Source: Dictyostelium discoideum
Taxonomy: Eukaryota
Length of the DNA stretch: 64,000 bases
Assembly (NCBI GenBank): GCA_000004695.1
Contig: CM000154.2
Location: 4,480,001 to 4,544,000, forward strand
Direction: 5' to 3'
Of the stretch, positions 22,665-57,478 are shown piece after piece. The notes below the pieces were generated by a model. The model was given only the letters and a program-made list of their open reading frames with translations, was not told where the DNA came from and made no database searches. Positions within the stretch are counted from its first letter, which is position 1. Every line of letters begins with the position of its first letter. The translations under genes and the position numbers were made by a program.

Positions 22665-22910
22665 TTATTCAACAACTAATTTATTTGTTGAATACATTGA
22701 ATTGATAAATGCTTGTCTTTTGACCATTTCTAAATTTTTAAGAGCATCTTGAATTAATTCTTTTGTTTCGTTTTGGTCTTTATTTTTATTTTCTCTAAAA
22801 CCAACAGATACTCTACGTAAGGAGTATTCTCTAAAATTATAGCTTGAAAACTTTTTTGATTCTCTTACTAATGAACGATATAAATGTAAAACTACTGATT
22901 TTTGTGACAT
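22665..22910 (-). CDS. LYR-motif protein 4 (ISD11/LYRM4 homolog; Fe-S cluster assembly cofactor), single exon, 81 aa
   Basis: Translation MSQKSVVLHLYRSLVRESKKFSSYNFREYSLRRVSVGFRENKN... matches the LYRM4 pattern (L-Y-R motif, RESKKFSSYNFREY, FRENK). Confidence 0.75.
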   Translation of the reverse strand: MSQKSVVLHLYRSLVRESKKFSSYNFREYSLRRVSVGFRENKNKDQNETKELIQDALKNLEMVKRQAFINSMYSTNKLVVE

Positions 22911-24172: not shown

Positions 24173-24181
24173 ATGATTTCA

Positions 24182-24275
<94 letters not shown>

Positions 24276-24779
24276 TTAAAACTGATGATAATAATAGGTG
24301 TTCTCTTCATCCAACACAAGATTTTATTTTTTTATGTCAAGAATGCGAATTAATTCCATGTTGCTCACATTGTATAGCTATTAGTACAGAAGATAATGAT
24401 CATTCTGGTCATAAAGTTGATATTTTATTAGAGCCAATACTACATGAATTATTTGATAATTTCAATGGTGAAGTATACCCAAGGGTGAATGAAAAACTTG
24501 AAATGTGTAAATCATTATTAAATGAATCAAATAATAAATTTAATCAAATTAAAGTTAATTATGATAATAGTGTAATTTTATTAAAGGACAAATTCCAAGA
24601 GTTTCTAAATTTAATTCGAGTTTTAGAGAGATCAATTCAAAATACTTTGAAAACCACCTACGAGAAAGATATAGAAACTTGTGAAAATATTTCATCCCTA
24701 TTAAATAATAATATTGAAATTCTCACTAAAATTTTAAAAAGTAAAGAAATTTTAAATACTAATGAAATTGAAAATCATG

Positions 24780-24830
<51 letters not shown>

Positions 24831-26552
24831 GAGATAAAACAAAAGAAATACTTAAACAATATCAACTTTCATTATTACACACAAAAAAAGATATTGGTAG
24901 TATTGTAAATAATAGTTTTAAGGACTATAAAAATATAACACTGTTATTCAATGATTCTAGAATTTCTGATATTAAAGAATCTTTAAAATTGATTCATTCA
25001 TTTGAAAATCCAAATGAAAATCCAAATGAAAATCAAATTGAAAATCAAATTGAAAATAAAATTGATGAAATTTCTAAAATTATTTATAAAGAAATTAAAT
25101 TAAAAGAAGAAAAAGAAAAGGAAGAAAAGGAAGAAAAGGAAGAAAAGGAAGAAAAGGAAGAAAAAGTAGAAAATGATGAAAAAGAAGAAAAACAAGATAA
25201 AGAAAAAGAAATAGAAAAAGAAGAACAAATAATAAAATTATATGAAAAAGATCATATAGATAATAATGAAAAAGAAAAAAAATTAAAATTTAAAGAAGAA
25301 ACATTGTATAAAAAAGAAGATTTATTTAATGTTAATGAAATTGAAAATAATGAAACAACATTAGAAAATTTTAAAGTTGGTGATAATAATTTATTTATCT
25401 CTTTTGAAGAAATTAAAAAAAATGAAAAAGAAAATGAAAATATTGGAGAAAAAGAAGAAATTTATGGGAATGGGTTAGTTAGTATTGATATTAAAGAAAT
25501 TGAAGAATCTTCAAATCAAATTATAAATAATAATTATAATTTTAAAACTGATATTAATAATTATCCATATATTCCATGTAAGTTATTAATTTTAATTTTT
25601 TAATAATTTATTCTAAAAACTAAAATAAAAAATTTAACTTTTTGCTTTATTTTTTATTTATTTTATATATATTTTTTTTTTAGGGAGGGGAATTAAAATT
25701 TATATATTTTCAAAAGATAAACCATTCCCAAATAAGCCATATGAAAATTGTGGAATTGCATTTGGTAGTGATTGTGGTAATGTTTCAAAATTAAGCATTT
25801 TACCATCATTTCAGAGTGTTTTATTATTGAATGGATTTGATCAAAGTTTGAAACAAGGTGTAATACCAAATGGTGTAAAATCCATATTAATTCATGATAT
25901 TAAACAGCCATTATTTTCATATTCATTTCCACCATCTGTTGAAACTATAATATTTGGGAATGGTTTCAACCAAATGATAACACCAGGTGTGATCCCAGAA
26001 AAAGGTATTGCTACTCTTTTATTTGGTGATATAAAACAACCATTATTTGCAAAATCAATACCCAATGATATATGTTGTATTTCATTTGGTAATGGGTTCA
26101 ATCATTATTTATCACCAGATGTTATTCCAAATGGTATAACTTTTTTATTTTTACACGAAATTAAGAAACCCTTACAAAAAGGTTCAATTCCCTCAAAGAC
26201 TAAAAGTGTAATATTTGGTAATGGTTTCATTCATCCGTTAACACCTGGAATCATACCAGAGGGAGTAAGAGTCACTTATTTCAATGATATTAAAAAACCA
26301 TTAGTAAAAGGTTCAATTCCAAATACTGTTGAAAGTGTTATCATTGGTAGTGATTTCAATCAAACATTATCCATTGGGATCATTCCTTCCAGTGTAAAAA
26401 ATATAAGTTTTTTAGGTATTAAAAAACCATTAGATCATTTATCAATTCCTGAATCTGTTGAAACTGTACAAATAATTCATGGTTTAAAACATTTGTTAGA
26501 GCCTTGTAAACTATCCAAACACATTAAAATTATTGAATTAAAAAAAAAATAA
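24173..26552 (+). CDS. B-box zinc-finger / coiled-coil protein fused to C-terminal FNIP repeats; 2 exons 24173..25577 and 25684..26552; about 757 aa
   Basis: N-terminal poly-Asn, B-box-like CSLHPTQDFIFLCQECELIPCCSHC...H..H, acidic KEE repeats. Donor CCAT|GTAAGT (25578) and acceptor TTTTTTAG|GG (25683), phase 1. This joins in frame to the FNIP-repeat ORF 25827..26552 (repeated IPxxVxxLxFGxxFNQxL units). Confidence 0.7.
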
Positions 26553-26599
26553 ATTAATAGATAAAAAAATAAATCAATAATTAATAAAAAAGTAGTTAT

Positions 26600-27100
26600 A
26601 AAAGTTTTATTTTACCATCTCCTACCAAAGGTATATGGTCGATGCATATATTTCTATCAAGTTTTTGAAAAATTAAATAACCTATTAAATGACCTATTCT
26701 ACCATTACTGTCAGCAAATGGGTGAATGTAAAGAAACATTGAATAAAACTATAATGCAAAAACCACAGGAAGTATTGTTGAATTATTTTGCTAATTCTAT
26801 TAACTTTGATAATAGTGGTGAAACTTCTTGTATATATGTACGTGTAATAACCAGCATGCTATAATTGGAGGATCCTATACTAACATGATTTTTATAAACT
26901 AGTAATAATAGATGTTTACTAATTAGAAGAGTTATAAACTTTATTGGCTTATTAAGAATCGATAAATACTAATACAAATTTTGAGGGTTTTAGTATAAAT
27001 ATTTGTTAAGGAATTTTATACCATTTTCATCATCCATTTTGAGTGCACATTCTCAAGCGAAAACATTTGAGAAAAATAATAATTCCACATGGTCAGGGTA
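26600..27100 (-). pseudogene. Degenerate Fic (filamentation induced by cAMP / AMPylase) domain remnant
   Basis: The - strand reads FYSMFLYIHPFADSNGRIGHLIGYLIFQKLDRNICIDHIPLVGDGKIKLL*. It contains the Fic core motif HPFx(D/E)GNGRxxR as HPFADSNGRIGH, with the flanking hydrophobic pattern. Upstream frames are broken by stops and frameshifts. The region is coding-like (not AT-rich) but has no intact ORF. Confidence 0.4.
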
Positions 27101-27515
27101 TCCAATAAGTTTAATTTCGAAAATAAATGTGTAATGAAAAAAATAAATTACCAATATTAAAAAATTTAAAAGTTTAATTAATTGTTAATATTAAAACCTT
27201 GGTGTAATAGATATATAATTAGTAATTAATTAGTAATTATTATTGAAGCTAAATAATAATATTTAAAAATAGATTTATTATTATATTTTTTTTAAAATTT
27301 GAAATAGATCTATTTAAAAATGTAGATTTGAGTATTTAATATTCGTCAGAAAAATGTGGGTTAAAAAAAAAAAAAAACTAATTAGGGTAAATCTATAAAA
27401 ATGTAATAAATAAAAAACCCAATTTGGAGTTAAATTTTTCTTTGGATTCTTTCTATATTTTTTTAATTTTAAAATTTTAATATTAATTTAATTTTTATTA
27501 AGAAATAAAGAAAAA

Positions 27516-37670
<10,155 letters not shown>

Positions 37671-38149
37671 AATAAAAATTTAATAACATTTACTACCATT
37701 AATTTTTGTCTCTCGTGAATAATTTTTTTTTAACAACATTGTCAATGTTATTAGTGTTTATATGTAAAAAAAAATTATTCACCAATTTCAAAATCATTGG
37801 AGTTTTAAAAAGAACCTTTTTCATTAACATTTTAAAATAATAATAACCAAAAATACTATAAACAACAACCTCTATAATATTTTTTATTAATTTTTCTACT
37901 CAAATAACCATTATTTATTTAAATAATTATTATTAAAATATTTTAATTATAATTTAATCTAATTTATATTAACTTTTTAATAAAAAAAATAAAAAAAAAA
38001 TAAAAAAAAATTTTTATAATAAAAAATTAATATTAATTTAAAAATAAAGTAGTATTTTAACAAAAAGGATAATTGTTTTTTTTTAATTTAAAAAATTAAT
38101 AAAAAAAAGCGAAAATGCGTTTTTCACCTTGGGTTTAAAAACGCATGCT

Positions 38150-41100
38150 GGAATGGCTCATGTGGTTTTTTTATTTTAATTTCAATAGACCCACACGTCT
38201 CAAAATCATTCACACAATTAGGTCTTTTAAGTTCAACAGGTAAATGTCATACATTTTCATCGGATGCTGATGGTTATGTTCGTTCAGAAGGTGTTGGTAT
38301 CGTTGTATTAAAGAGATTAAAAGATGCAATCAAAGATTCAAATAATATCTATTGTGTAATCAAAGGATCAAGTTCAAATATCGATGGTAACTTTGATAAA
38401 TTAAACTTTTATTCACCATCAAAATAATCAATATCAGATTCATTGATTTGACCATTGGTTGATTTGATTGCTAATTTGATGTGTGAAACTCATGGTACTG
38501 GTACTCCAACTGGTGATCCAATAGAATTAGAAGGTATATCAAGAGTTTTCAATAATACTAAAATACCATCAACAACAACAACAACAACAAATAATAATAA
38601 ACAAGTTTTAGTTGGATCAATTAAATCAAATATTGGACATCTTGAAGGTAAGTTTATTAATTAAAAATTAAGTCTATAAATAACCAAAGTCAATCATTAC
38701 TAACATTAAATATTGTTTATAATTAATAACAGCATGTTCAGGAGTTGCATCATTAATTAAATGTTGTTTAATGTTTAAAAATAAACTATTTCTTCAAAAT
38801 ATTAATTTCAAAGAACCAAATCCATTAATTAATTTTAAAGAATGGGGATTAAAAGTTGTCACTGAACCAATTAAATTTAATGAAAATAAATCAACTGTCA
38901 TGTTACTTAATAACTTTGGTATAACTGGTAAAAATATATAAATTTTATCTTTTTTTTTAAGTTTATAAAATAAATAATTAACATTATATCATTAATTTAG
39001 GTTCAAATGTTTGTTTAATATTATCTGAATTTAAAAATAATAATCATAATGACTATAGTAGTGGAGTCGAAATTAATGAAAGAAAGAAATATTTAATACC
39101 ACTCTCAAGTAATTCATCAACATCATTAAATAATTATAATTAAACATTCAAATTCAAATTCAACCTCATCATCGACAATAACAACAACAAGTTTCAAAGA
39201 ATACATAATCAAATTAAATTCAAATCAACATCATTAATTCAAAAATCAGTTATAATCGCAAGTGATTGGAATGAATTTCAAGATGAAAATAATCAAATCA
39301 AATTAAATAATAGTGATAATTTAATTTCAAATATTACAGTTGAAAAAAAGAAATCACCAATCACAGTAATTGTATTATGTGGTTAAGGTTCACAATATAA
39401 TAAAATGGCATTATCATTATATGATAACGAACCAGTATTTAGAGAATCTGTCAATAGATTCGATAAAGAGTTATTCAAATATTATGGTTATTCAGTTTTA
39501 GATAAATTAAGATCAATTGATGAAGATTTAATATCAATTCATCATCCAATTTTAGCACAACCTGCAAATGTTATCATTCAAGTATCACTTTATGAATTAT
39601 ATAAACATTGGGGTGTTTCAGCAGATATTATCATTGGTCATTCTCTTGGTGAAATATCATCGTCATATTGTTCAGGTATGATTGATTTTCAAACATTATG
39701 CTACTTGACTTACCATAGATCAGTAGCTCAAAATAGAACCATAGGTACAGGTAGAATGTTATCAGTTAATATTAGTTCAGATGAATTCATTAATAAATAT
39801 CAATCTACAACTAGATATAAATCATTAGAAATTGCATGTTACAATTCACCAACATCAATCGTTATCTCAGGTAAAGAAGACTTATTAAATGAAATTACCA
39901 AAGATTTCAAATCAAACGATATCTTTTGTTCAATGTTAGGATTATTATCATCATTTCATACATCAAGTCAACAAATGATTAAAGATGAAGTATGTTCATT
40001 AAATATTTCATCGAAACAACCATCGATAGCAGTATTTTCAACAGTTACAACCAGTTTATTCGATCATCAAACTTCACCGTTCAATGCAGGTTATGCATTT
40101 AATAATATTCGCCAACCAGTTCGTTTCACACAAACAATAACAAATCTTTACAAACATATCGAATCAAATGATATGGGTAATGAAATTACATTCATTGAAG
40201 TTTCACCACATCCAACATTACAATATTACTTAAATCAAATGAAATCAACTCAATCAAGTTACTTTAATAATGGTAAAAACATTACAATCTATTCACCATT
40301 AAATAAAAAGAAGAATGATTATAATGAATTCTTAAAGACAATCTCTTTATTATTTGTCAATAATAATTTTGATATTAATTTCAAATCACAATTAATTAAT
40401 AACAGTATTAACCATACAAACCAATCAAATAATTTACCACTTTACCAATGGGATGATAAAGAATACTTTAAACTAAACTCATCACTTGAAAAGATTAAAA
40501 ATGAAGGTCCATCCATTCACAGTCTTGGTAATAATACAGATTCACCATATCCATCATATCAAACATTTATCGATATCAAGAAATTACCATTCCAATGGTT
40601 AAAAGGTCATCAAGTTAGTGATAAATTCTATTATCCAGGAATGGGATATGTTCACAATTTATTATCAATTTATCCATATCAAGATATTACAATTAGCTCA
40701 TTAGAATTTAAATCACCATTATTATTAACAGAAGGTATTAATCAATGTTTACAAACTACAATTGCACCACTATCAAAGAATGAATTCAATATTAAAAGTC
40801 ATTATAAAGATCAAAAAACAAATCAATGGATATTATCATCTCTTGGTAATTTTAGTTTAACCAAACATAACAGTATCATCATCAACAAATTAATTAATAT
40901 TCAATCATTAAAAGATAAATGCAATTTTACAATCATTCCAAAACAAGATTTTTATGAAACTATTAGAATTAAAGCAAATTTAATATACAAAGGTTTATTT
41001 CAAGGTGTAAAACAATGTCATATCGGTAATAATTGTTCATTAGCAATAGTATCACTAAATGAAATTTATAATCAAAAAGAATATAATCATTTAATTAACA

Positions 41101-42268
41101 ATGGCAATATGAATACATTCTTTAATAGGGCAATTTTAGATACTTGTTTACATGGAGTTTTAGGTGGATTTACAAAACCAGTCGTACTTGATAGAATTGA
41201 AGCTTTCAAATTTTACTCTTCAAATATTCCATTATTAAATGAAAATGACAATAGCAATAATAATGGTATTGTTTTAGATATATTAAAATATTTGGTTAAA
41301 TATTCAAATGATTCAATTGAAAATATAATAATACTTTCAAAATCAAAACTAAAATGGGAATTAGAATTATTAATCAATCAAAGCAAATTTAAAAAAGATA
41401 ATAATATTAAATTCCATTTCTATCAAATCGATATTGAAGATTCAAATAAAGTTAATCAAGTATTAAATCAATTAGAATTAAATGAAAATATTACAAACAT
41501 TGATTCAATCATTCATTTTGCATTTATGAATGATATTGTGATGTTCAACAAATTGATATGAATCGTTTAAATAATACACATGGTGCTAAAACGATTGGAG
41601 CAATTAATCTTCACAATCAATCAATTAATTGTTCATGGAATATCAAACAATTTATAATGGCATCATCAGTAGTTTCAATATTTGGATCAGATCAACAATG
41701 TTGTTATGTTAGTGCATGCAATGTAATCGATTCATTATCAAAGTATAGACATTCAATTGGATTACCATCTTTAGCCATTAATTTAGGTGCGATATCGTCA
41801 ACTGGTTTCATATCACGTAATAATGCAATTGAAACAATGTTTCAGAGTTATTTTTTAAAAATATTCTCACCTCAACATGTTATTAGCTCATTAGATTTAT
41901 TCATTCAAAATCAACATCAATATCCAAATTATTGTGTATCAGATTTCGATTTTGAAATTTTACCATCAACTTTAACAAACCAATACCATTCAAAATTTGA
42001 TTTTGGAATTAAATATTTCGCTGGTGATAATAATAATGGAACTATTCACTCAACAATTTTAAATAAAATCAGTGAATTATTATCAATTGACGAATCTAAA
42101 ATCAATGAAGATTTACAACTCACACAATATGGTATGGATAGTTTAGTAATTGTACAATTAAAGAATTTTATCGATAATCAATTAGGTCATAATATTATCA
42201 CAATTCAACAATTACAAAATAATAAAATCAATCAATCAATTGAAATCATTAAATCAGCTCACAACAAA

Positions 42269-42314
<46 letters not shown>

Positions 42315-42350
42315 GCAATAATAATAGCAATAATGAACTGGTATAAAAAT
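38150..42350 (+). pseudogene. Rearranged PKS pseudogene copy: starts at exon-4 homolog, has a 56-bp micro-inversion in KS, a nonsense codon, an internal ~3 kb deletion removing C-MeT+ER, a frameshift before KR, and truncation after ACP
   Basis: 38425..38480 is the exact reverse complement of the KS segment ATCAAATTAGCAATCAAATCAACCAATGGTCAAATCAATGAATCTGATATTGATTA. TGTGGTTAAGGT at ~39380 (CGQG -> CG*). DH sequence ...[31 protein letters not shown] joins directly to KR. ...MNDIVMFNKLI* versus ...[17 protein letters not shown] (frameshift ~41540). It ends NNELV* at 42346, and homology to A/B is lost at ~42350. Confidence 0.7.
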
Positions 42351-42862
42351 AAAATTTGTGACGAAAAAAAAAATAATAATTCAAATATTAATTTGGTTTC
42401 ACATAGTTGTAAACATAATTAATTTTGTTTTTTAAATAACCACTTTGGGCAATTTATTGTTTATTTCCTTTTATGGATTAAAACTGATATATCAAAAAAA
42501 ATGTTAGCTAAGTAAATATTAAATAAATATTTATTTAATAACAATAATAATAATAATAATAATGTTTAATTAATAATATTACATAATATAATTGAAAAAT
42601 CTTTTTATATTTAATTAATAAATGATTACATTTAATCTCTTTTTATAACTTTTTTTTTTTTTTTTCTATTTGATCTCTTTTTTTATTATAAATTAAATAT
42701 ATGAATGTTTAGTAGTTTGAAATCATAAAACAATTGGGAATTTTCCTATTGTGGTTGAGCATTACGATGTGCTAAAATCCTAAATTATCTATCGATACAA
42801 GATTCACTTAGTTTTTCAAGAATATGAAATATAAAATAATAACAAATGTAATTTTTTTTTAT

Positions 42863-44288
42863 TTAATGATTGTTAATGATATCATTAAAAATCATTGATT
42901 CATTAATTTCCCAATCCTGATGATTATATGAACCAATTGAAATTAATAATTCTTTTGTGCTATTTGACATTTTGAATAAACTATTGATTTTAAAGCTTGT
43001 TAATAATAAATTTTGATTTTTGTGAATGTGGAATGTTGAATATCTTTTTGATGATTTTCCATTTGATTTTGAAACTAATTCAATCCATTCATAGAAATCG
43101 ATTTCTTTACATTTAAAACTATTTTCTAATACCCTATAAAATGATTTCATTTCAATTGAATCACCATTAAAATTATAAATTGAAATTGGTTTTGATTTAT
43201 TTTGATTCCAACTGTTTTCATTGAATATTAAATCGATTGTGGTTTTAGCTATAGTTGTAACTGGAGTTGTGAAAACTGATTTATGAATATTTGGATAATA
43301 ACCAATCTCTTTCGAAGATTTTATTAAAAGTGATATAAAATCATTTGAATGACCTATACCTGTTATTGGATTTGAGAATATATCTATAATTAAAATAGCA
43401 ATGAAAATAGTTATTGGAATATTATATATAAATATATAAGGTTAATACTAAATTAATTGATTGGAATCAATATATATTAATATGCTACATACCAGGTGGT
43501 CTAATAATGATTGATGGTATACCTCTTGATTCTGCTGCGTTTGTTAATAATTTCTCTGAAATAACTTTAGATTGAACATATCCAATTGGCGTAGAATTAT
43601 AACTTGGAACTAAATTTGTTTCTTCGAAATCCTCTTCATCTTTAAAAGGATGATTAATGAATACTGCAAGTGATGAAAAATGAACTATTAATTTTTGTGA
43701 GCTATTATTTGAAACTGATAATTTTATAACTTGATTAACGTTGTTGACATTTACAGTTTTACTTTCTTCATAGTTTGATTTTAAATCTAAATCTGCTGCT
43801 GAATTTATAATAATATCACATTCATTTGATAGTTTTAAATAATCTTGTTCAGTTAAACCAAAATTATCTTTTGAAATATCACCAATCGTTGGAATGATTT
43901 TAATTAATTGATCTTCACTTATTTGGCTATTATTATCACTATTATCACCACTTTCAATATTACTATTTAATCTTTGATTTGGTGATCCTTTGTTCATATT
44001 AATTAATTGGTGTTTCTTTAAATTATTAATAATTACATCGATTGGATTTGTTAATTTTGAATTATTTCTTATTAAACAATAAATTTTTGAGATATTGTTC
44101 ATTTTAATTAATTCTGTTAATAAATATGCACCCAAGAATCCTGTTGAACCTGTTAAGAATATTGATTTACTATTATTATTATTATTTAATATATTTTTAA
44201 TTGAATATGGTCTTGAAATGATTGATTCATTTAATTTAGTTTCATTTTTAATAAATTCATCAAGTGATTGTTGTTCTTTTTTAACTAA

Positions 44289-44356
<68 letters not shown>

Positions 44357-47300
44357 GAGCCGATTTAATAATTTCAATTGATTGATTGATTTTATTATTT
44401 TGTAATTGTTGAATTGTGATAATATTATGACCTAATTGATTATCGATAAAATTCTTTAATTGTACAATCACTAAACTATCCATACCATATTGCGTGAGTT
44501 GAAGGTCTTCATTGATTTTAGATTCATCAATCGATAATAATTCACTTATTTTATTTAAAATTGTTGAACGAATAATTTCATTATTATCACCATTACCACC
44601 AGTGAAAGATTTCATTTGATTTGATTTTTTAACAATATTAATTTCAAAATCAAATTTTGAATGGTATTGATTTGTTAAAGTTGATGGTAAAACTTCAAAA
44701 TTGAAATCTGATAAACAGTAATTTGGATATTGATGTTGATTTTGAATGAATAAATCTAATGAACTAATTACGAGTTGAGGTGAGAATAAATTAAAAATTG
44801 AACTCTTAAACATTGTTTCAATTGCATTATTACGTGATACGAAACCAGTTGATGATATCGCACCTAAATTAATGGCTAAAGATGGTAATCCAATTGAATG
44901 TCTATACTTTGATAATGAATCGATAACACTACATGCACTAACATAACAACATTGTTGATCTGATCCAAATATTGAGACTACTGATGATGCCATTATAAAT
45001 TGTTTGATATTCCATGAACGATTAATTGATTGATTGTGAAGATTAATTGCTCCAATTGTTTTAGCACCATGTGTATTATTTAAACGATTCATATCGACTT
45101 GTTGAACATCACCAATATCATTCATAAATGCAAAATGAATGATTGAATCAATGTTTGTAATATTTTCATTTAATTCTAATTGATTTAATACTTGATTAAC
45201 TTTATTTGAATCTTCAATATCTATTTGATTGAAATGGAATTTAATATTATTATCTTTTTTAAATTTGCTTTGATTGATTAATAATTCTAATTCCCATTTT
45301 AATTTTGATTTTGAAAGTATTATTATATTTTCAATTGAATGGTTTGAATATTTAACCAAATATTTTAATATTTCTAAAACAATACCAGTTTGACCAGTGA
45401 GTAAAATATTTTTACCAATATTTAATTTTGAAATATCATATAAATGTTTCATTATGATATGATTGTTATTACTTTGATAATTATTATAAACTCTATTAAA
45501 TTCATCTTGATTATGATTAACAATGATTTTACCAATATGTTTTCTTTGATTTATATATTCAATTGCATCTTTAAATTGATTATTTGAATATTCAATGATT
45601 GGTACACTTAACTCTAATTTATTTGAATTAATCATTTTGATAATTTTCTTTAAATAGCTTTTGATTAATTTACTAGTGAAATCGACAACTTCTACATTAC
45701 TATATGTCATATTAAATTTGAAATGATTATTTGTCATATAATCATTTGGTGTGAGATGAGTGATACTTAAATCAACGATACGTCCTGATAAATTTAAACA
45801 TTGGAAATTTGAATCCATATACTCTGATGATAATGTATTTAATATTAAATCTACACCTTGTTGTTCAACTTCACCTAATTCCATTAATTTATTCTTTATA
45901 TCTTTGACATAGTTTTTATTACGAGATGAATAGATAGCAGTAATTAATGATCCATATTTCTTTATTAAGTATTCTTCTTTATCTTTTGAACTAACTGTTA
46001 AAAATATATAACCTTGATGTTGTTTACTTTTTAATAAATCTAAAGATGATATACCAATACCACCTGCTGCTGAATGAATTAAAATTGATTCATTTGATTT
46101 TAAATTACCAATACTGTAGATACTATGTAATGATGTAATATAAATAGATGGTATTGATGCTGAAACTGAATGGCTATAATTTAATGGTTTATAATAAATA
46201 GAAGTGAAATCTACAATAACATGTGAACTACTTGCTTTTGAACCAATACCACAAACTTGATCACCAACTTTAAATTTCTTTACATTATTACCTAATCTTG
46301 TAATAATACCACTAAAGTCATTACCAATGTTTGGATTATCAATACCAATACCATTTTCAATTTCATACTCTTTACCATACTTAATATCTAAATCTGAACC
46401 AATCATACCGATATACATTAAATAATCTTTATAATTTATACCAGTTGCCTTAACTTCTATCTCTACTTCATTTGAATTTAATTTAGCTTTTTTACTATAT
46501 AATTGATATTCTAAATTTGAATTTAATTGAATATATAAATTATCTTTATTGGTTTCAAATGATTTAGATTGGAATATACTTTTAATATTATTTGATCTTC
46601 TACAATATCTTTCATAGTATACTTTATTATTATTAATTGTAAATTCTTTTTGAATATTATTATTTGGATTGATTAAATAATTGATTAATGATAATTGTTG
46701 ATTATTTTCAATTGAAATATTATCATAATTTAAAGTTAATAAATCTAATTGTGGGAATTCAACGAAATAACGAGCAGCACCAATAATTGATGATGATAAA
46801 TAATTATCAGTGGTTGAATTTAATGATAATAATAAATGTTTGAAATTATTTGATAATTCTAATTTTAATATTAATTGATTAATTTGAATGTATTCAAATG
46901 TGATCTCTTTGAAATTAAAAGTATTCATTGTTGATTCAATTGATTTTAAAAATATTATTAATGTTTTATTACAATCATCTTTATTTTGATAATTTGTAAT
47001 CCATGATTGAAATTCATTGTAATTACTAATATTAACGATTTTGTGTTTTAATTCTTGATTTAATCTTATTAAATTTTGTATACTACTGCTGCAGATATCA
47101 TTTTTATAACTATTAATATTTCTAATATTATTACTGTTACTACTAAATAAAATAATGTTATTGAAAGAATTTAATTGATCTAATGATATTGATTGTTCTG
47201 AAATGATTTCATTAATTGTTGGTTTTCTAGTTTGAATTAAAAATACTAAATTATCATTACCAGACATTATTGTATCTCTATAATTACATTGATTTAAAAG

Positions 47301-48028
47301 GTTAATCCATTTCTCTTGTTTCATACAACATCTATCAGGTCTTAATTCGATATCACTATCAGAGGATGGCCACCATTGTGAAAAACAACCGAATATCGAA
47401 TCAAAATAAAATGATTTGTATGGTGGTTCTATAAATAAAAGTTGACCATTTGGTGTTAATATATTATGAATTTCATTTAATGTTGGTTTGAGTTTCTTAA
47501 CGACATGCATAACATTTGACATTACAACGAAATCATAATAGGATGCTTTAAGATCTTGATCTAATAATGGTTTCTCTAAGTCTAATACACGATAGATAAT
47601 ATTTAAATTGTTATGATTTGTAAATGATGAGAAATTTTCTTTAATTTCAGCGAAAAATGATGCAGATACATCACTCCATGTAAATTCTATATTAATGATT
47701 GATGTTGTACTATTATCGTTTAATAATTTACAAATCTTTTCTAAAATTAATAAACTAAGACTACCAGTACCGCCACCTGCTTCTAATATACGAAATACAA
47801 TTGGTTCATTTAAAATTGGTTTTAGAGTTTCAACTATAATTTCACTTAATAAATTATTTGATGGTTTAATTACATTTGAATTCTTATAAAATTCATCTAA
47901 ATAACCACTTTCAAATAATGATTGTGGTGTATCTGTAATGGAATCATCATCTTTTAATGGGAATAACTGTTTTGCCATTACTTTAGTTGCTCTAATATAT
48001 AAATTTTCATAATTATTATAACCATTAC

Positions 48029-48080
<52 letters not shown>

Positions 48081-51000
48081 TATATTAGGATTGTTTTGGA
48101 ATTTTTTTAAAACTTCAAAAATGAATTTGAAAAGATTTTCATTTGCTAGACTATTATCATAATATAATTGTTTAAATTGATCATATTCTAATGTTGTTAA
48201 TGATTCTAAATTGATACTTGGACATCTTTTATTAATGTGTTTATAAAATAATGATGGTAATAATCCCTTTGAAATGAATCGATTTCCTTCTTCTTTGACA
48301 CTAAATTCATCTACTCTATATAAATGTTTGAATTGTTCAGGTTTATTGATCATAGAATCTTTTGATTGAAGATATGGTGTATAAATTTCATTTGATGGTG
48401 GTTTACAAATTATAGTACTATCAGGATTGGAGCCAACAATAGTGCAAACTACATTTCCAATATCAACTAATAATGTACCATTTGGAAGTATGATTTTAAT
48501 TGATCCTGAATATGTTTGAGAATTGGTTCTTGCTCTAATTTCAGAGTAAACATATAATTCTTTAATTGTATCATTATTATTGCTATTGTTGTTATTATTA
48601 AATGATGGATAATTTGAAGAGTAAAATTTGAAAGCTTCAATTCTATCAAGTACGATTGGTTGTGTAACTGCAACCAATACTCCATGTAAACAAGTATCTA
48701 AAATTGCTGTATTAAAAAATGTATCCATAATACTATTGTTCAATAAATGATTATATTCTTTTTGATTATAAATTTCATTTAATGATACTATTGTCAATGA
48801 ACAATTACTACCGATATGACATTGTTTTACACCTTGAAATAAACCTTTGTATGTTAAATTTGTTTTAATTCTAATAGTTTCATATAAATCTTGTTTTGAT
48901 ATGCTTGTAAAATTACATTTATCTTTTAATGATTGAATATTAATTGGTTCATTATTTTCAATATTATGTTTGGTTAAACTAAAATTACCAAGAGATGATA
49001 ATATCCATTGATTTGTTTTTTGATCTTTATAATGACTTTTAATATTGAATTCATTCTTTGATAGTGGTGCAATTGTAGTTTGTAAACATTGATTATTACC
49101 TTCTGTTAATACCAATGGTGATTTAAATTCTAATGAGCCAATTGTAATATCTTGATTTGGATAAATTGATAATAAATTGAGAACATATCCCATTCCTGGA
49201 TAATAGAATTTATCACTAACTTGATGACCTTTTAACCATTGGAATGGTAATTTCTTGATATCGATAAATGTTTGATATGATGGATATGGTGAATCTGTAT
49301 TATTACCAAGACTATGAATGGATGGACCTTCATTTTTAATCTTTTCATGAAACGAATTAATTTTAAAGTATTCTTTATCATCCCATTGGTAAAGTGGTAA
49401 ATTATTCAATTGATTTGTATTGTTATTATTGATTAATTGTGATTTGAAATTAATATCAAAATTATTATTGACATATAATAAAGAGATTGTCTTTAAGAAT
49501 TCATTATAATCATTCTTCTTTTTATTTAATGGTGAATAGATTGTAATGTTTTTACCATTATTAAAGTAACTTGATTGAGTTGATTTCATTTGATTTAAGT
49601 AATATTGTAATGTTGGATGTGGTGAAACTTCAATGAATGTAATTTCATTACCCATATCATTTGATTCGATATGTTTGTAAAGATTTGTAATTGTTTGTGT
49701 GAAACGAACTGGTTGGCGAATATTATTAAATACATAATCTGCATTGAATGGTGAGCTTTGATGATTGAATAAATTGGTTGTAACTGTTGAAAATACTGCT
49801 ATCGATGGTTGTTTCGATGAAATATTTAATGAACATACTTCATCTTTAATCATTTGTTGACTTGATGTATGAAATGATGATAATAATCCTAACATTGTAC
49901 AAAAGATATCATTTGATTTGAATTCATTGGTAATTTCATTTAATAAGTCTTCATTACCTGAGATAACGATCGATGTTGGTGAATTGTAACATGCAATTTC
50001 TAATGATTCATATTTAGTTGTAGATTGATATTTATTAATGAATTCATCTGAACTAATATTAACTGATAACATTCTACCTGTACCTATGGTTCTATTTTGA
50101 GCTACTGATCTATGGTAAGTCAAGTAGCATAATGTTTGAAAATCAATTATACCTGAACAATATGACGATGATATTTCACCAAGAGAATGACCAATGATAA
50201 TATCTGCTGAAACACCCCAATGTTTATATAATTCATAAAGTGATACTTGAATGATAACATTTGCAGGTTGTGCTAAAATTGGTTGATGAATTGATATTAA
50301 ATCTTTATCATCAATTGATCTTAATTTATCTAAAACTGAATAACCATAATATTTGAATAACTCTTTATCGAATCTATTGACAGATTCTCTAAATATTGGT
50401 TCATTATCATATAATGACGATGCCATTTTATTATATTGTGAACCTTGACCACATAATACCATTACTGTGATTGGCGATTTCTTTTTTTCAACTGTAATAT
50501 TTGAAATTAAATTATCACTATTTTCTAATTTGATTTGATTATTTTCATCTTGAAATTCATTCCAATCACTTGCGATTATAACTGATTTTTGAATTAATGA
50601 TGTTGATTTGAATTTAATTTGATTATGTACAAATTCTTTAAAACTTGTTGTGGTTGATGATGAATTTGAATGTTTAATTATTGATGATTTATAATTATTT
50701 AATGATGTTGATGAATTACTTGAGAGTGGTATTAAATATTTCTTTTTTTCATTAAATTTATTATCAATTTTGATTTTGTGATAACTATTACTTTTATTAT
50801 AACTAAATTGATTACCATAAAATTCAGATAATATTAAACAAACATTTGAACCTAAATAAAAAACATTATTAAAATATTAATTATTTATTTTATAATAATA
50901 AAATATAATGATATATATTTACCTGTAACACCGAAATTATTAAGTAACATGACAGTTGATTTATTTTCATTAAATTTAATTGGTTCAGTGACAACTTTTA

Positions 51001-52622
51001 ATCCCCATTCTTTAAAATTAATTAATGGATTTGGTTCTTTGAAATTAATATTTTGAAGAAATAGTTTATTTTTAAACATTAAACAACATTTAATTAATGA
51101 TGCAACTCCTGAACATGCTATTATTATTTATTATTATTATTATTATAGATAATATTTAATGTTAGTAGTTAATAATTGACTATAGTTATTTATATTTAAT
51201 TAAATTTAATTAACTTACCTTCAGTATGTCCAATATTTGATTTAATTGATCCAACTAAAACTTGTTTGTTATTATTTATTAATGTAGTTGTTGACGCTTT
51301 ATTATTGAAAACTCTTGATATACCTTCTAATTCTATTGGATCACCAGTTGGAGTACCAGTACCATGAGTTTCACAATAATCAATATCAGATTCATTGATT
51401 TGACCATTGGTTGATTTGATTGCTAATTTGATATTTTCATACTGAGATGATTTTGATGGTGAATAAAAGTTTAATTTATCAAAGTTACCATCGATATTTG
51501 AATTTGATCCTTTGATTACACAATAGATGTTATTTGAATCTTTGATTGCATCTTTTAATTTCTTTAATACAACGATACCAACACCTTCTGAACGAACATA
51601 ACCATCAGCATCCGATGAAAATGTATGACATCTACCTGTTGGACTTAGCATATCTAATTTTGTGAATGATTTTGAAATGTGTGGGTCTTTGAATAAATAA
51701 ATAAAATATCAAATTAATATCTTTTTTTTTTTTTTTTTTTTTTTTTTATCACATACCTAATATAAAATTAACACCACCAACAATTGAAACATTTGATTTA
51801 TTTGATTTAATTGAATTATATCCACAATTAATTGCATTTGACGAACTTGAACAAGCTGTATCAATTGTTAAATTTTCACCTCTATTTTTTAAAATTAATA
51901 TAATAGTTAAAATTATAGTTGTGGTAAAAGAAAAGATAAATCAAAAACATACCTAAAATCAAAGCAATAACCAATTCTATTTGCAATAGAATGAGTTGTG
52001 GAACCAAAAATATTATTTTGAGTTTCCAATGGTGATCTTTGAAGATCATTATAATCAATAGTACTACTACCAATAAATGTACTTGTATTGGTACCACGTA
52101 AACTAATTGGATCAATACCACTATCTTCTAATGCTTCCCATACACCTGTTTGTTGATTTTATTTTAAAAATATAATTAATAAATAAATAAATATAAATAT
52201 CTAAATTTTTTGTGGAAAAGTTCAAAAACACTTAATAAATACATACATTTTAATAATAATCTTTGTTGTGGATCTATTGAACTGACATTATCATTGCTTG
52301 GATTAATTGCAAAGAAGATTGGATCAAATTGTTTCCATTCATCAAGTGGAAGTAAACCAGCAAACTTTGAAACGATTTCACCATTTAAATAATAATTATC
52401 AGACCATCTTTCAGAAGTTGTAACGATTCCATCCAATCCATTCAATAATTCATTAAATAATTGATTTGGTTTTGAAATTGATTCTTTTAAATTACCACTT
52501 GGAAATCTTAAACCAATACCAATCACTGCAACATCACCACTACCATCAACATCATCATAATCATTTCTATCCCTTATTAATTTATTATTATAAGTGCTAT
52601 TATTGTGAATATTTTCTGTCAT
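42863..52622 (-). CDS. Type I iterative polyketide synthase B, near-identical convergent paralog of A; 7 exons on the - strand: 52247..52622 (ATG at 52622), 51953..52145, 51757..51881, 51219..51686, 50923..51117, 43493..50851, 42863..43383; about 3078 aa
   Basis: Same exon/intron structure and phases as A. The long ORF 43485..50462 plus an upstream open frame covers AT through R. Same motifs as A. The first listed M of ORF 52176..52658 is a non-ATG start; the real ATG ([24 protein letters not shown]...) is at 52622. Confidence 0.85.
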
Positions 52623-52743
52623 TTTTTTTCTTTTTTTTCTAAATAAAACAATAAACAAAATTATATAAAAAATTTTAAAGTATTTATAATTTTTTTTTTT
52701 TTTTAATCAAGTTAAATTTTCATTTAATTTTTTTTTTTTTTTT

Positions 52744-53009
52744 ATTAAAATTTAAAAATTTTAATCAGAAAAAATAATAATTGTGTGTGGGGTAACCTAT
52801 TTAAATTTTATTTATTTTGATTCAATTAATTTTTTTTTTTTTTTTTTTAGTGTGTAGACTGACCACATTCACCACTGTTGAAAATGAGATATAAACTGAA
52901 AAAACAATTCAGTCTTTTTAAATTTTACCTGAATAATAAAAACCATTGTTTAAAAACAGGGTGTGGTGGGACGGGTTATTTTTTCTGATTAAAATTTTTA
53001 AATTTTAAT
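52744..53009. repeat. Small element bounded by 34-bp perfect inverted repeats (ATTAAAATTTAAAAATTTTAATCAGAAAAAATAA at 52744..52777; reverse complement at 52976..53009) with a GT/G-rich 198-bp core; MITE-like or hairpin RNA locus about 120 bp upstream of the PKS B start codon
   Basis: Exact 34/34 complementarity checked base by base. Core contains TGTGTGTGGGGTAACC ... GGGTGTGGTGGGACGGG and a second short inverted repeat AGACTG/CAGTCT. Confidence 0.6.
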
Positions 53010-54535: not shown

Positions 54536-56338
54536 TTAATTACGTTTTATGAATAAGGCATCAAAAGGTTTACATTGCATTGCCAAACCAACTTCTCCTT
54601 CAACATCAATTGGAATATCAGTTGGATTGACTATTTTAAAATTCTTTAACATTATCACCAAAAATGTAAAAGTCAAAGATTCTGTAAATCTTCCTCCTGG
54701 ACAACCTCTAGGTCCTGTTTTAAAAAAAATAATAATGATGATTATTATTATTATTATTATTATTATAAATTAGTTGTAAATTAAAAAAAAAAAAAATAGT
54801 GGTAAATTTTAATTCCTTTTTAAAATGGTATCAAAACATACCTGCACCAAAATGAAAAAGTCCTTTTTGATATAAAGGTTGATTTTTAAATCTTTCTGGT
54901 TTAAATTCTAAAGCATCTTCACCCCAAAACTCTTTTGATAAATGTGTACCACGAAGATTTTTAATTATCATTGTACCTTTTGCAATTTTATATCCATTTA
55001 CTTCAACATCTTCTGTTGTTTTATTCGGTTCAGTTATTGGTACTGAAGAATTATATCTATATGATTCTATTATTCAAATTAATACAAAATTTATTTTTTG
55101 AAAAAATATATCAACACATATTAATACCAATATATATATATATATGGATAATTACCATTCATTACAGAAATAATATATGGATATTTTGTATGATCAGCAA
55201 ATGATATATTATTTGTATTATTATTTTCATCATTTCTCATGATTTCTTCATATATTTTATCTTGAATTTCAGGTTTATTAATTAATTGACCAATTAAAAG
55301 ACTAAACCCATTGGATGTTGAATCAACTGCTGCAAAAATAATATCAGAAATTGAAAACAAGATTGAATCATAATGAATTGAACCATCTAAATAATTTTTA
55401 TAATAATTCTCAATAATTGGAATATTGTTTAGTTTTGAAGATGTTTCATCAGTAGTTTCATTTTTCAATTCATTTTCTTTTTCATATTTAATTTTAATAG
55501 CATCAAGTTTTATACCTATAAAATCTTTTAAAAAAAAGTAACTAGAAATAATATCATTCTTTGACATTGATTTTATATCTAATGGAAATAAAAATGGTAA
55601 ATAATCAGAGTAAATTAATAATCCAGCAGCTTCAAAAATGCATTTAATCTTTTCTACAATGATTAGAATGGTTTCATCATTCTCTTCAATTCCTAATGTG
55701 AAATTTAATATTAATTTAACAGCAAGAATCCTAATTTGATTTGGTGTATTTTTAACAAGAGTTTCTTTATTATCTTTACAAAGATTACTAAACATTTCTA
55801 AAATAAATTTATTTGATTCTAATCTGCCATTATTTAACTTTCTTGTTGTAATTTCACTTGTAAGAATTCCTCTTAGAACATAATGATAATCACCATTTGA
55901 AGAAATAATGTTATAATCTTTACCAAAAAATCTTGAGAATTTAATATATCTTTCTTTGAAAATTTCTCTATGTTTTTTATTAAAACATTCATCAATAACT
56001 TCAGGCCCTGTTAGAACAACAATTTCAACACTACCCAATCTTAATCTAAAAACTTTGCCATATCTTTCATAGAAATCATTTACACTTTTTGGGAAATCTT
56101 TTGCGTTAATTTGTAATAAATTACCAAAAACTGGAATTGTAGAAGGACCAGGTATTAATTTATTAATTTTTTTAATCCTACCTTCAAATAATAAATCCTA
56201 TTTAAAAAAATAAAAGTATAAGTAAGTGTTTAATTTTTAATAATCAATAATATATATAATATTTTAAAATTTTACTTTTAATATTAATGATAATACTAAT
56301 ATTGTAATTGTTAAAATAATTGTAAATATTGTATTCAT
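54536..56338 (-). CDS. Cytochrome P450 monooxygenase, 4 exons on the - strand: 56276..56338 (ATG 56338), 55156..56197, 54842..55066, 54536..54714; about 502 aa
   Basis: N-terminal membrane anchor MNTIFTIILTITILVLSLILK, proline hinge PGPSTIPVFGNL, I-helix AAVDSTS, ExxR (ESYR), PERF, and heme loop split by the intron FHFGAG|PRGCPGGRF. GT-AG junctions and phases are consistent (63+1042+225+179 = 1509 nt). Confidence 0.8.
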
Positions 56339-57478
56339 TGTAATATTATAAAATATTTTAATTGAGAATCTTTTATATTAAAGTTTTTATATTAAAAAAA
56401 AAACTATTTAAATTATAAAATAAAAAAAACCAATAATGTTTTTGTTAAAAACAAATTGATATATTTAAATTTTGGGGAAGTGGGTTAAAATAATTAATTA
56501 TAAAAAAAAAAAAAACCACCAAATTTTTTTTTTTTTTTTCTTTATTAATAATTAAAAAACTTTTTTTATTTCTAAAAACGAACTTGAAAACAGTTTAGAA
56601 AACAGTTTTTAATTTATTTTTTGAAACTGTTTAATTTTATTTTATTTTAATTTTAAAAAAAAAACCAAAATAAAAAAATGACCATTGTACCTTTTGTAAT
56701 ATACTTCAATAAACTGTTTTTTTATTATTTAATTTTAAAAACAAAAATAAAAACAAAAATAAAAATAAAAATAATGAATTAAAAAAAAAAAAAAAAAAAG
56801 TTATAAGATATCTAATTAAGGGTGTAAAAATTTCAGCAATATTTTTTATTTTTATTAATTTTTTTCTGTAATAAATTCGTAAACATATAATAAAAAAGAG
56901 ATATCAAATAGAAACAAAAAAAATAAAAAAGTTTTAACATTTCAAAAAAAGAGAAGTTTAAAATTTAAGGGGGTAAAAAAAACATTTTTTTTTTTTTTTT
57001 TGTAAATTGACAAACACAAAAGCAAACTATACATTAAGTTAAATCTATTAAATAGTTTTTTATATAGAGTCTCGGGGAAATCACCAGATTTCAAAAAAAA
57101 AAATAAAAAAAAATAAAAAAAAACATAATTTTGGGTCAAATAAAAAACAAAAATTTTTTTTTTTATAGTGCGAATTAAAATTAATTATTTGTGTTGAAAG
57201 TAATATCCAAACAATCTAACCTTTTTTTTATTTTTATTTTTTTAATAACTATAAACGTCATCAAATTTTTTATTTAATTTTTTTTTTTATTTCTATAATA
57301 ATATCAAATTTATTTATTTTATTTTATTCTATTTTATTCTATTTTATTCTATTTTATTGTATTTTATTTTATTTTATTTTATTTTATTTTATTTATTTGT
57401 AAAAGAGAAAAGACACAAAATATAGATAATAATAATAAGGGATAGAAATGATGATGATGATGTTGATAGAAATGATGA

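What the first reader, a model, noticed from the sequence alone, without database searches (positions are those of the whole stretch)
26600..27100. Fic-domain core motif (HPFxDxNGR) preserved in an otherwise decayed coding-like segment
On the - strand one frame reads ...FYSMFLYIHPFADSNGRIGHLIGYLIFQKLDRNICIDHIP... This matches the Fic/Doc AMPylase signature HPFx(D/E)GNGRxxR in 7 of 8 constrained positions. The neighbouring conserved Ile and the downstream hydrophobic periodicity (LIGYLIF) also match. The final motif Arg is His. Everything upstream is interrupted by stops in all frames. A chance match to this motif in 64 kb is improbable (order 1e-4), so this is most likely a relic of a Fic-domain gene, or a Fic-carrying mobile or horizontally acquired element, wedged between the FNIP gene and PKS A. 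Fic remnants are unusual enough in amoebozoan genomes to deserve a look.
Basis: partly seen in the sequence, partly recalled or inferred. Interest (0 to 1): 0.6.

Follow-up and report, generated by a model that had tools for sequence, protein, structure and literature searches.

The report
Decayed Fic-domain gene fragment (pseudogene)
Between a FNIP-repeat gene and a polyketide synthase gene of Dictyostelium discoideum lies the broken, non-functional remnant of a Fic-type protein-modifying enzyme gene; it is real but ordinary, a dead gene fragment in a rearranged gene cluster.

Summary
On the - strand, 26698-26724 encodes HPFADSNGR. The match to the Fic family goes well beyond the motif. The stop-free 50-aa piece alone passes Pfam's Fic threshold (24.5 vs 24 bits). 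After repairing one 1-nt indel the score rises to 33 bits (E 1e-7). hhalign against six bacterial Fic proteins gives 97.7% probability over 53 columns. tblastn against plasmids hits 85 records; every annotated feature under the listed matches is 'Fic family protein'.

The detectable homology covers about 63 codons (26641-26830). It is split over two frames by an indel next to an A4 run and carries an in-frame TAG. Two further stops lie upstream, and the last ~40-45 residues of a Fic domain are missing. Codon-position GC matches native Dictyostelium exons, so this was a resident gene, not contamination.

No repeats, tRNA or mobile-element features flank it. No close relative appeared among 1.84 billion representative proteins or in viral contigs. 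In D. firmibasis the same slot holds a cytochrome P450 gene and no Fic-like sequence.

Verdict: a Fic/Fido pseudogene fragment. Fic proteins are already reported in Dictyostelium, so interest is low to moderate.

The parts
26596..27037 (-). Probable extent of the pseudogene body: candidate ATG 27035-27037 to terminal TAA 26596-26598, 146 codons after repair of one indel
   Evidence: GC is 0.258 here, against 0.167 upstream and 0.093 in the downstream spacer. Codon-position GC resembles real exons. The part above 26830 has no detectable homology, so the 5' limit is inferred.
26641..26830 (-). Fic-homologous core (helix before the motif, the motif, and the helix after it), split over two frames
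   Evidence: Pfam PF02661 33.1-33.4 bits, E 1e-7, profile positions 37-91 of 93. BLASTP 39% over 62 aa to a Clostridioides Fic protein, E 2e-10. hhalign 97.7% probability, 53 columns. tblastn against plasmids, 85 records.
26698..26724 (-). Active-site motif HPFADSNGR, followed by IGH (canonical HPFx[D/E]GNGRxxR; Gly to Ser and last Arg to His)
26749..26751 (-). In-frame TAG inside the helix preceding the motif; it aligns with Leu or Val in bacterial Fic proteins
   Evidence: The homology runs through it (PVVFAL*FYSMFLYIHPF against PVVAAALSAFGFVFIHPF), so it is a nonsense mutation and not an intron end.
26783..26789 (-). Frameshift site: A4 run 26786-26789 followed by TAA 26783-26785. Removing one A fuses the two homologous pieces and removes the TAA.
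26786..26968 (-). 61-codon open stretch in the adjacent frame (YLSIL...LIELAK). Its last 15 codons (QEVSPLLSKLIELAK) carry Fic homology.
   Evidence: (GC1/2/3 = 0.34/0.26/0.15)
26969..26992 (-). Two further in-frame stops upstream (TAG 26969-26971, TAA 26990-26992), if this frame was the original one
   Evidence: the frame assignment here is inferred
24173..26552 (+). Flanking B-box/FNIP-repeat gene, convergent with the relic; model join(24173..25577,25684..26552). Its stop is 43 nt from the relic's stop.
   Evidence: D. firmibasis counterpart
27516..37670 (+). Flanking polyketide synthase gene (PKS A), divergent from the relic, across an AT-rich spacer 27038-27515
   Evidence: called as a 3109-aa product in GCA_054883475.1

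Best explanation
This is a non-functional remnant (a unitary pseudogene fragment) of a small Fic/Fido-domain gene in the Dictyostelium discoideum chromosome. The gene once lay on the - strand, convergent with the FNIP-repeat gene and divergent from the PKS gene.

Shown:
- About 63 codons retain family-level homology to Fic proteins.
- They cover the helix before the active site, the active-site loop HPFADSNGR, and the following helix.

Shown disabling lesions:
- A 1-nt frameshift next to an A4 run.
- An in-frame TAG inside a homologous helix.
- Loss of roughly the last 40-45 residues of the Fic fold.

Inferred:
- Two more stops upstream belong to the same former reading frame.
- The gene lived long enough in the amoeba genome to take on host base composition and codon-position bias.
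- It then lost constraint and decayed, possibly when this PKS cluster was rearranged.
- It makes no active enzyme now.

Its ancestor would have used the motif His as catalytic base to transfer a phosphate-linked group (AMP in canonical Fic enzymes) from a nucleotide onto a hydroxyl group of a target protein. That follows from established knowledge of the family and was not tested here. I cannot tell whether the Gly to Ser and Arg to His changes are decay or mark a non-canonical subfamily.
For: - Pfam Fic is above its curated cut-off for the stop-free 50 aa alone (24.5 vs 24 bits). It rises as homologous flanks are added: 29.0, 30.8 and 33.4 bits.
- PDB phmmer: all matches with E < 0.5 are Fic proteins.
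- NCBIfam: the only hits are two Fic-family models.
- tblastn against plasmids: 85 records at 38-44% identity over query residues 3-65, spanning both frames. Every annotated feature under the 25 listed matches is 'Fic family protein'.
- A collinear second HSP, EVSPLLSKLIE, appears in the other frame with 3 of 6 bacterial Fic proteins.
- hhalign gives 97.7% probability, E 2.5e-12.
- With the motif kept and the flanks shuffled, 0 of 1000 shuffles reach the real score. With the motif masked, 17.4 bits remain.
- A six-frame scan of 139 kb of Dictyostelium DNA scores the relic at 43.7 bits. The next best hit, 7.5 bits, is the adjacent shifted piece. Everything else is at or below 5.4 bits.
- Codon-position GC is 0.40/0.27/0.16 and 0.34/0.26/0.15 in the two frames, like real exons, with a phase switch near 26790.
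- The + strand frames give no Pfam hit.
Against: - The homologous stretch is short, and nothing upstream of 26830 can be tied to Fic. The original length and start are therefore guesses.
- The frameshift lies in a homopolymer and could be an assembly error. I do not know how this assembly was sequenced.
- My own HMM was built from sequences picked as hits to the relic, so its scores are inflated. Pfam and PDB results are free of this bias.
- Transcription and polymorphism were not examined.
Confidence: 0.85

Rival explanations
1. It is a live small gene. The frameshift would be a homopolymer assembly error, the TAG would be read through or polymorphic, and a short Fic-like protein or the 47-aa ORF 26596-26739 would be made.
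For: - One deleted A restores a 123-codon frame.
- The catalytic His, Asp, Asn and first Arg of the motif are intact.
- Codon-position GC is still exon-like.
Against: - The TAG lies inside a helix that aligns residue by residue with Fic proteins.
- No room or signals exist for an intron: about 10 nt separate the two homologous pieces.
- Two more stops lie upstream.
- The reading ends 16 codons after the aligned part. A 202-aa Clostridium Fic protein continues for 59 more, so core helices are missing.
- No gene with the 47-aa product is on record.
Confidence: 0.05
2. It is a chance resemblance in AT-rich non-coding DNA.
For: - The region is short.
- The strict signature is met at only 7 of 9 positions.
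- The search of 1.84 billion representatives found only two true Fic hits, near the E-value limit.
Against: - About 1e-5 motif matches are expected in the window, and there were 0 in 300 simulations.
- The flanks alone carry significant signal.
- Pfam's curated threshold is passed.
- The background in 139 kb scanned in six frames is at or below 5.4 bits, against 43.7 for the relic.
- GC content and codon phase are coding-like only here within the intergenic interval.
Confidence: 0.02
3. It is cargo of a mobile element, or a recent horizontal arrival (bacterial, plasmid or viral DNA inserted at this site), rather than an old resident gene.
For: - The best pairwise relatives are small plasmid-borne bacterial Fic genes.
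- The Fic family is known for horizontal spread, including into eukaryotes (PMC4454073).
- The D. firmibasis syntenic slot lacks any Fic-like sequence.
Against: - Base composition and codon-position bias are fully host-like.
- Identity to any bacterial protein is only about 40%.
- There is no close relative among representatives or viral contigs.
- No terminal repeats, tRNA, or second copy were found.
- An old transfer followed by amelioration is not excluded and is compatible with the best explanation.
Confidence: 0.08

Closest known systems
Small bacterial Fic family proteins of the CdFic type (PDB 4x2e/4x2c; WP_228846491.1 of Clostridioides sp., 233 aa; WP_226130735.1 of Clostridium estertheticum, 202 aa)
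   Same: - Best pairwise matches: 39-53% identity over 34-62 aa.
- The spacing between the EVxPxLxxLIE helix and the IHPFxDxNGRIG motif is nearly the same (17 residues in the C. estertheticum protein, about 15 in the relic).
- The following helix and turn (L..L..N) are shared.
- The inferred overall size is similarly small.
   Different: The relic has Ser for the motif Gly and His for the last Arg. It carries stops and a frameshift, lacks the C-terminal ~40-45 residues, and shows no detectable N-terminal similarity, including no (S/T)xxxE(G/N) inhibitory motif.
Metazoan FICD/HYPE (PDB 4u04, 6i7g)
   Same: It shares the helix, motif and helix core ([26 protein letters not shown] against ILPVVFAL*FYSMFLYIHPFADSNGR), with E about 1e-3.
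   Different: It scores lower than the bacterial small Fic proteins. There is no trace of the TPR or transmembrane parts, and the relic is far shorter.
Dictyostelium Fic proteins of clade E2 (Khater and Mohanty 2015, PMC4454073 supplement)
   Same: They share the genus and the family, which makes them the obvious candidate parent or paralog.
   Different: I could not fetch their sequences. No protein in the 1.84-billion-representative library scored above about 36 bits with the 50-aa piece, so any such paralog is not a close copy.
Non-canonical Fic enzymes (AnkX phosphocholine transferase; the second domains of the double-Fic proteins P0004/P0005)
   Same: - They deviate at the same two motif positions.
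- P0004 reads FYCLFLKVHPFADSNG (75% identity over 16 aa), and P0005 reads HPFADANGRVGY.
- AnkX is a weak hit (E 0.2).
   Different: The matches are very short. P0004 sits on a bacterial-type contig next to a Phd/YefM antitoxin gene. In a dead gene the same changes could simply be decay.

Membership tests
Fic/Fido domain family (Pfam PF02661) | Score at or above Pfam's curated gathering cut-off (24 bits) | tested here: met
   24.5 bits for the stop-free 50 aa; 29.0, 30.8 and 33.1-33.4 bits for stitched translations
Fic/Fido domain family (Pfam PF02661) | Homology outside the active-site loop (the helix before and the helix after the motif) | tested here: met
   hhalign 53 columns at 97.7% probability; flank-shuffle test 0 of 1000, and 17.4 bits with the motif masked; BLASTP over 62 aa
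Fic/Fido domain family (Pfam PF02661) | Complete Fic fold encoded by an open reading frame | tested here: not met
   One frameshift, an in-frame TAG, two further upstream stops, and a C-terminus about 40-45 residues short. It is therefore a pseudogene fragment of the family, not a member gene.
Canonical AMP-transferring Fic enzymes | Strict motif HPFx(D/E)GNGRxxR | tested here: not met
   HPFADSNGRIGH: Gly to Ser and last Arg to His, 7 of 9 positions
Fic classes I-III (Engel et al. 2012 scheme; from my own knowledge) | Inhibitory helix motif (S/T)xxxE(G/N), located before or after the core or on a partner protein | tested here: inconclusive
   None was seen by eye in the three - strand frames of 26553-27500. 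The relevant parts may be decayed or deleted.
Fic/Fido domain family | Nucleotide-dependent modification of a target protein | not testable with these tools
   This needs biochemistry, and the ORF is disrupted.
Mobile element or repeat family of Dictyostelium | Terminal repeats, multiple copies, tRNA-adjacent insertion | tested here: not met
   Only AT-rich low-complexity matches were found. The core 26612-27100 is unique in the window and in L001/L002. No tRNA in 20-32 kb and no Rfam hit.

The most novel reading that the evidence does not exclude
The relic is the footprint of a separate, lineage-specific capture of a small plasmid-type bacterial Fic (toxin-like) gene by the D. discoideum lineage, distinct from the known Dictyostelium Fic genes. 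On this reading the gene was kept long enough to acquire host codon usage. It was then discarded at a breakpoint of the PKS-cluster rearrangement that separates D. discoideum from D. firmibasis.
Probability: 0.15. Interest if true: 0.4.

Novelty: new member of a known kind. Interest (0 to 1): 0.25.

Why it matters
It adds one decayed copy to the sparse record of Fic genes in eukaryotes. It also marks a spot where a Dictyostelium polyketide synthase cluster was remodelled: the same slot holds a P450 gene in D. firmibasis. If the fragment descends from an independent bacterial transfer, it would be a small example of gain and then loss of a bacterial toxin-type enzyme in a bacterium-eating amoeba. 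It does not open a new mechanism or system. For annotation, 26596-27037 should be labelled a Fic-family pseudogene rather than left as intergenic DNA.

Tried and rejected
- **Word-index protein search with the 63-aa piece.** No candidates.
- **Exhaustive representative search with the 50-aa piece.**
  - Only five hits. The top three are repeat proteins matched by repeated weak stretches and were rejected as spurious.
  - The other two are unnamed double-Fic proteins from Logan contigs, one in a bacterial-type neighbourhood.
- **Orthologous loci through the PKS N-terminus and the FNIP repeats.** These returned only paralogous loci at about 90% DNA or 38% protein identity, which do not cover the relic.
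- **Exact look-ups.**
  - Several window ORFs were not on record.
- **Intron rescue.** The TAG could look like a 3' splice site (tatag|TTT). I rejected this for three reasons:
  - The upstream PVVFAL aligns with Fic proteins.
  - The only nearby GT gives a 56-nt intron with a poor donor.
  - It puts the exon in the wrong frame.
- **Derivation from the P450 gene in the D. firmibasis slot.** tblastx gave only low-complexity noise. The true D. discoideum homologue of that P450 is at 54539-56179.
- **Weak hit to the 703/795-aa proteins of L001/L002.** A Clostridium Fic N-terminus matched them at E 0.018. They have no Fic motif, so I rejected it.
- **Upstream extension.** Pfam, NCBIfam, PDB phmmer, BLASTP and hhalign found nothing above 26830.
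- **Viral contigs.** No relative.
- **Literature.** No paper describes a specific Dictyostelium Fic gene beyond the survey cited.

Full report
**Source and setting.** The window is Dictyostelium discoideum DNA.
- Window ORFs match KAM9948297.1 and an exon of XP_001134511.1 exactly. The LYRM4 ORF at 22665-22910 (-) equals XP_635573.1 of strain AX4.
- Window 29405-51561 is base-for-base identical to GCA_054883475.1 CM142511.1 4572650-4594806. That puts the finding at about 4,569,841-4,570,282 of that record.
- Overall GC is 22.9%.
- The finding lies in a 963-bp interval. On one side is the stop of a B-box/FNIP-repeat gene, whose model is join(24173..25577,25684..26552) on the + strand. On the other side is the ATG of a polyketide synthase gene at 27516 on the + strand.

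**The observation.** The - strand frame that ends at TAA 26596-26598 reads NNSTILPVVFAL*FYSMFLYIHPFADSNGRIGHLIGYLIFQKLDRNICIDHIPLVGDGKIKLL*.
- The motif HPFADSNGR occupies 26698-26724.
- It meets 7 of the 9 constrained positions of HPFx(D/E)GNGRxxR. The Gly is Ser and the last Arg is His.
- A degenerate DNA pattern for the motif occurs once in the window and in none of 100 shuffles.
- The peptide pattern occurs in none of 300 Markov simulations. About 1e-5 occurrences are expected from six-frame residue frequencies.

**Similarity beyond the motif.**
- The stop-free 50 residues alone score 24.5 bits against Pfam Fic (PF02661, curated cut-off 24).
- Adding the upstream residues through the TAG gives 29.0 bits over profile positions 50-91 of 93.
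- Adding the neighbouring frame gives 30.8 bits.
- Against PDB sequences, every match with E below 0.5 is a Fic protein (CdFic-type 4x2e, 4rgl, FICD, SoFic, IbpA, AnkX). With the stitched translation the alignments stretch to 55-71 residues.
- NCBIfam returns only two Fic-family models.
- tblastn of the stitched 81-residue peptide against 72,556 plasmids finds 85 records. Every annotated feature under the 25 listed matches is 'Fic family protein'. Identity is 38-44% over query residues 3-65, which spans both reading frames.
- I fetched six of these genes and compared them with the window. Each gives a main match at 26784/26769-26626. Three of the six also give a collinear second match, EVSPLLSKLIE at 26795-26827, in the adjacent frame. 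The spacing from that helix to the motif is about the same as in the bacterial proteins (roughly 15 against 17 residues).
- hhalign of the six-protein alignment against the reconstructed translation gives 97.7% probability, E 2.5e-12, over 53 columns.
- With a small HMM of ten Fic segments, shuffling the flanks while keeping the motif drops the score from 59.8 to 20.5 +/- 3.4 bits (0 of 1000 reach the real value). Masking the motif still leaves 17.4 bits. This HMM is biased upward because its members were chosen as hits to the relic. Pfam and PDB are not.
- A six-frame scan of the window plus four other Dictyostelium loci (139 kb) with that HMM gives 43.7 bits for the relic. The next best hit, 7.5 bits, is the adjacent frame-shifted piece. 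Everything else scores 5.4 bits or less.
- The three + strand frames give no Pfam hit.

**Anatomy of the decay.**
- The two homologous pieces sit in different frames, about 10 nt apart. That leaves no room for an intron.
- Deleting one A of the A4 run at 26786-26789 fuses them and removes the TAA at 26783-26785. The result is a 123-codon reading with a single TAG, which scores 33.1 bits, E 1e-7.
- The TAG at 26749-26751 lies inside the helix before the motif. It aligns with Leu or Val of bacterial Fic proteins, so it is a nonsense change and not an intron boundary.
- If the same frame is followed upstream, it meets TAG 26969-26971 and TAA 26990-26992 before a possible ATG at 27035-27037.
- After the aligned part only 16 codons remain before the terminal stop, where a 202-aa Clostridium homologue has 59. 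The last helices of the fold are therefore missing.
- That terminal stop is 43 nt from the stop of the convergent FNIP-repeat gene.
- Nothing upstream of 26830 can be tied to Fic by any method.

**A former coding sequence of the host.**
- GC is 0.258 over 26596-27037, against 0.167 upstream and 0.093 in the downstream spacer.
- Codon-position GC is 0.40/0.27/0.16 in the motif frame and 0.34/0.26/0.15 in the upstream frame. The FNIP exon gives 0.37/0.34/0.14 and the PKS exon 0.30/0.27/0.12. The spacer is flat at 0.13-0.14.
- The phase of lowest GC switches near 26790, where the frameshift lies.
- Above about 26940 the phase signal is ambiguous.
- This pattern argues for an old resident gene. 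It argues against contamination or fresh foreign DNA.

**Relatives and context.**
- No close relative exists among 1.84 billion representative proteins. Only two true Fic hits appear, near the significance limit, both unnamed, and one is on a bacterial-type contig. Viral contigs also gave nothing.
- There are no flanking repeats beyond AT-rich low complexity, no tRNA, no Rfam match, and no second copy in the window or in the fetched loci.
- I reached the syntenic locus of D. firmibasis through the LYRM4 protein. Gene order is conserved: aminotransferase, ALG7-like, RRM/MLLE protein, kinase, LYRM4, FNIP-like gene, then PKS.
- There the slot between the FNIP-like gene and the PKS is 2.47 kb. It holds a 498-aa cytochrome P450 gene and has no Fic-like sequence.
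- The relic shows no similarity to that P450. The D. discoideum homologue of the P450 lies at 54539-56179 (-) of the window.
- The cluster has therefore been rearranged between the two species. The relic sits at a place where their content differs.
- Either the Fic gene was lost without trace in D. firmibasis, or it arrived or moved here in the D. discoideum lineage. I cannot tell which.

**Comparison with what is known.**
- Fic enzymes use the motif His to transfer AMP, or another phosphate-linked group, to a target hydroxyl. This is family knowledge and was not tested here.
- The relic resembles small bacterial Fic proteins of the CdFic type slightly more than metazoan FICD (26.4 against 21.4 bits). 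The margin is too small to decide its origin.
- Khater and Mohanty (2015, PMC4454073, main text and supplement) report sporadic, polyphyletic Fic genes in eukaryotes and propose that they arose by several horizontal transfers. They place Dictyostelium Fic proteins in their clade E2. A Fic-related sequence in this genus is therefore not unexpected.
- The deviations at the motif Gly and last Arg also occur in live non-canonical Fic domains (P0004, P0005). In a dead gene they may equally be decay.

**Verdict.**
- This is a genuine Fic/Fido-family pseudogene fragment (confidence about 0.85).
- It is a new member of a known kind, of low to moderate interest (0.25).
- The most novel reading still open is an independent, since-lost bacterial capture at a PKS-cluster breakpoint (probability about 0.15).

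Noticed in passing
window 1920-2541, 3047-3851, 5252-5518, 27447-37690, 38479-42346, 42851-52755, 57306-57469, 61641-63048: The window is a segmentally duplicated PKS cluster. It holds two full PKS genes in opposite orientation, called as 3109-aa and 3078-aa products in GCA_054883475.1. It also holds a run of PKS fragments called as separate genes of 168, 718 and 229 aa, plus several short copies of the PKS N-terminal exon.
   Followed up: partly
window 54539-56179 (-) and L012 4145-5940: A cytochrome P450 gene lies directly between the FNIP-like gene and the PKS in D. firmibasis. Its D. discoideum homologue (66-82% protein identity) is about 28 kb away, beyond the second PKS. The cluster was therefore rearranged between the two species.
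   Followed up: partly
window 24173-26552 (+): The B-box/FNIP-repeat gene (my model gives 758 aa with one intron, 25578-25683) found no near-identical protein in the 5.8-billion-cluster collection; the best hit was 38% identical. The D. firmibasis counterpart is called as 963 aa. The gene may be unannotated or mis-modelled in D. discoideum.
   Followed up: partly
window 6667-6766 and 11236-11335: Two runs of exactly 100 N, which are assembly gaps.
   Followed up: no
L001 8380-10567 (-), L002 8879-11266 (-): A 703/795-aa Dictyostelium protein with no Pfam family on record lies next to another PKS of the same chromosome region in two other assemblies. A weak similarity to a Fic N-terminus (E 0.018) looks like chance, and there is no Fic motif.
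   Followed up: yes
window 26940-27150: The codon-phase signal here fits neither open - strand frame cleanly, and could also be read as a + strand pattern. No family hit was found on either strand. What this upstream part of the coding-like block once encoded is unresolved.
   Followed up: partly
window 22665-22910 (-): The LYRM4 protein is in the protein collection as XP_635573.1, but the gene-position index has no record of it. This is a gap in the look-up tool, not a biological feature.
   Followed up: yes
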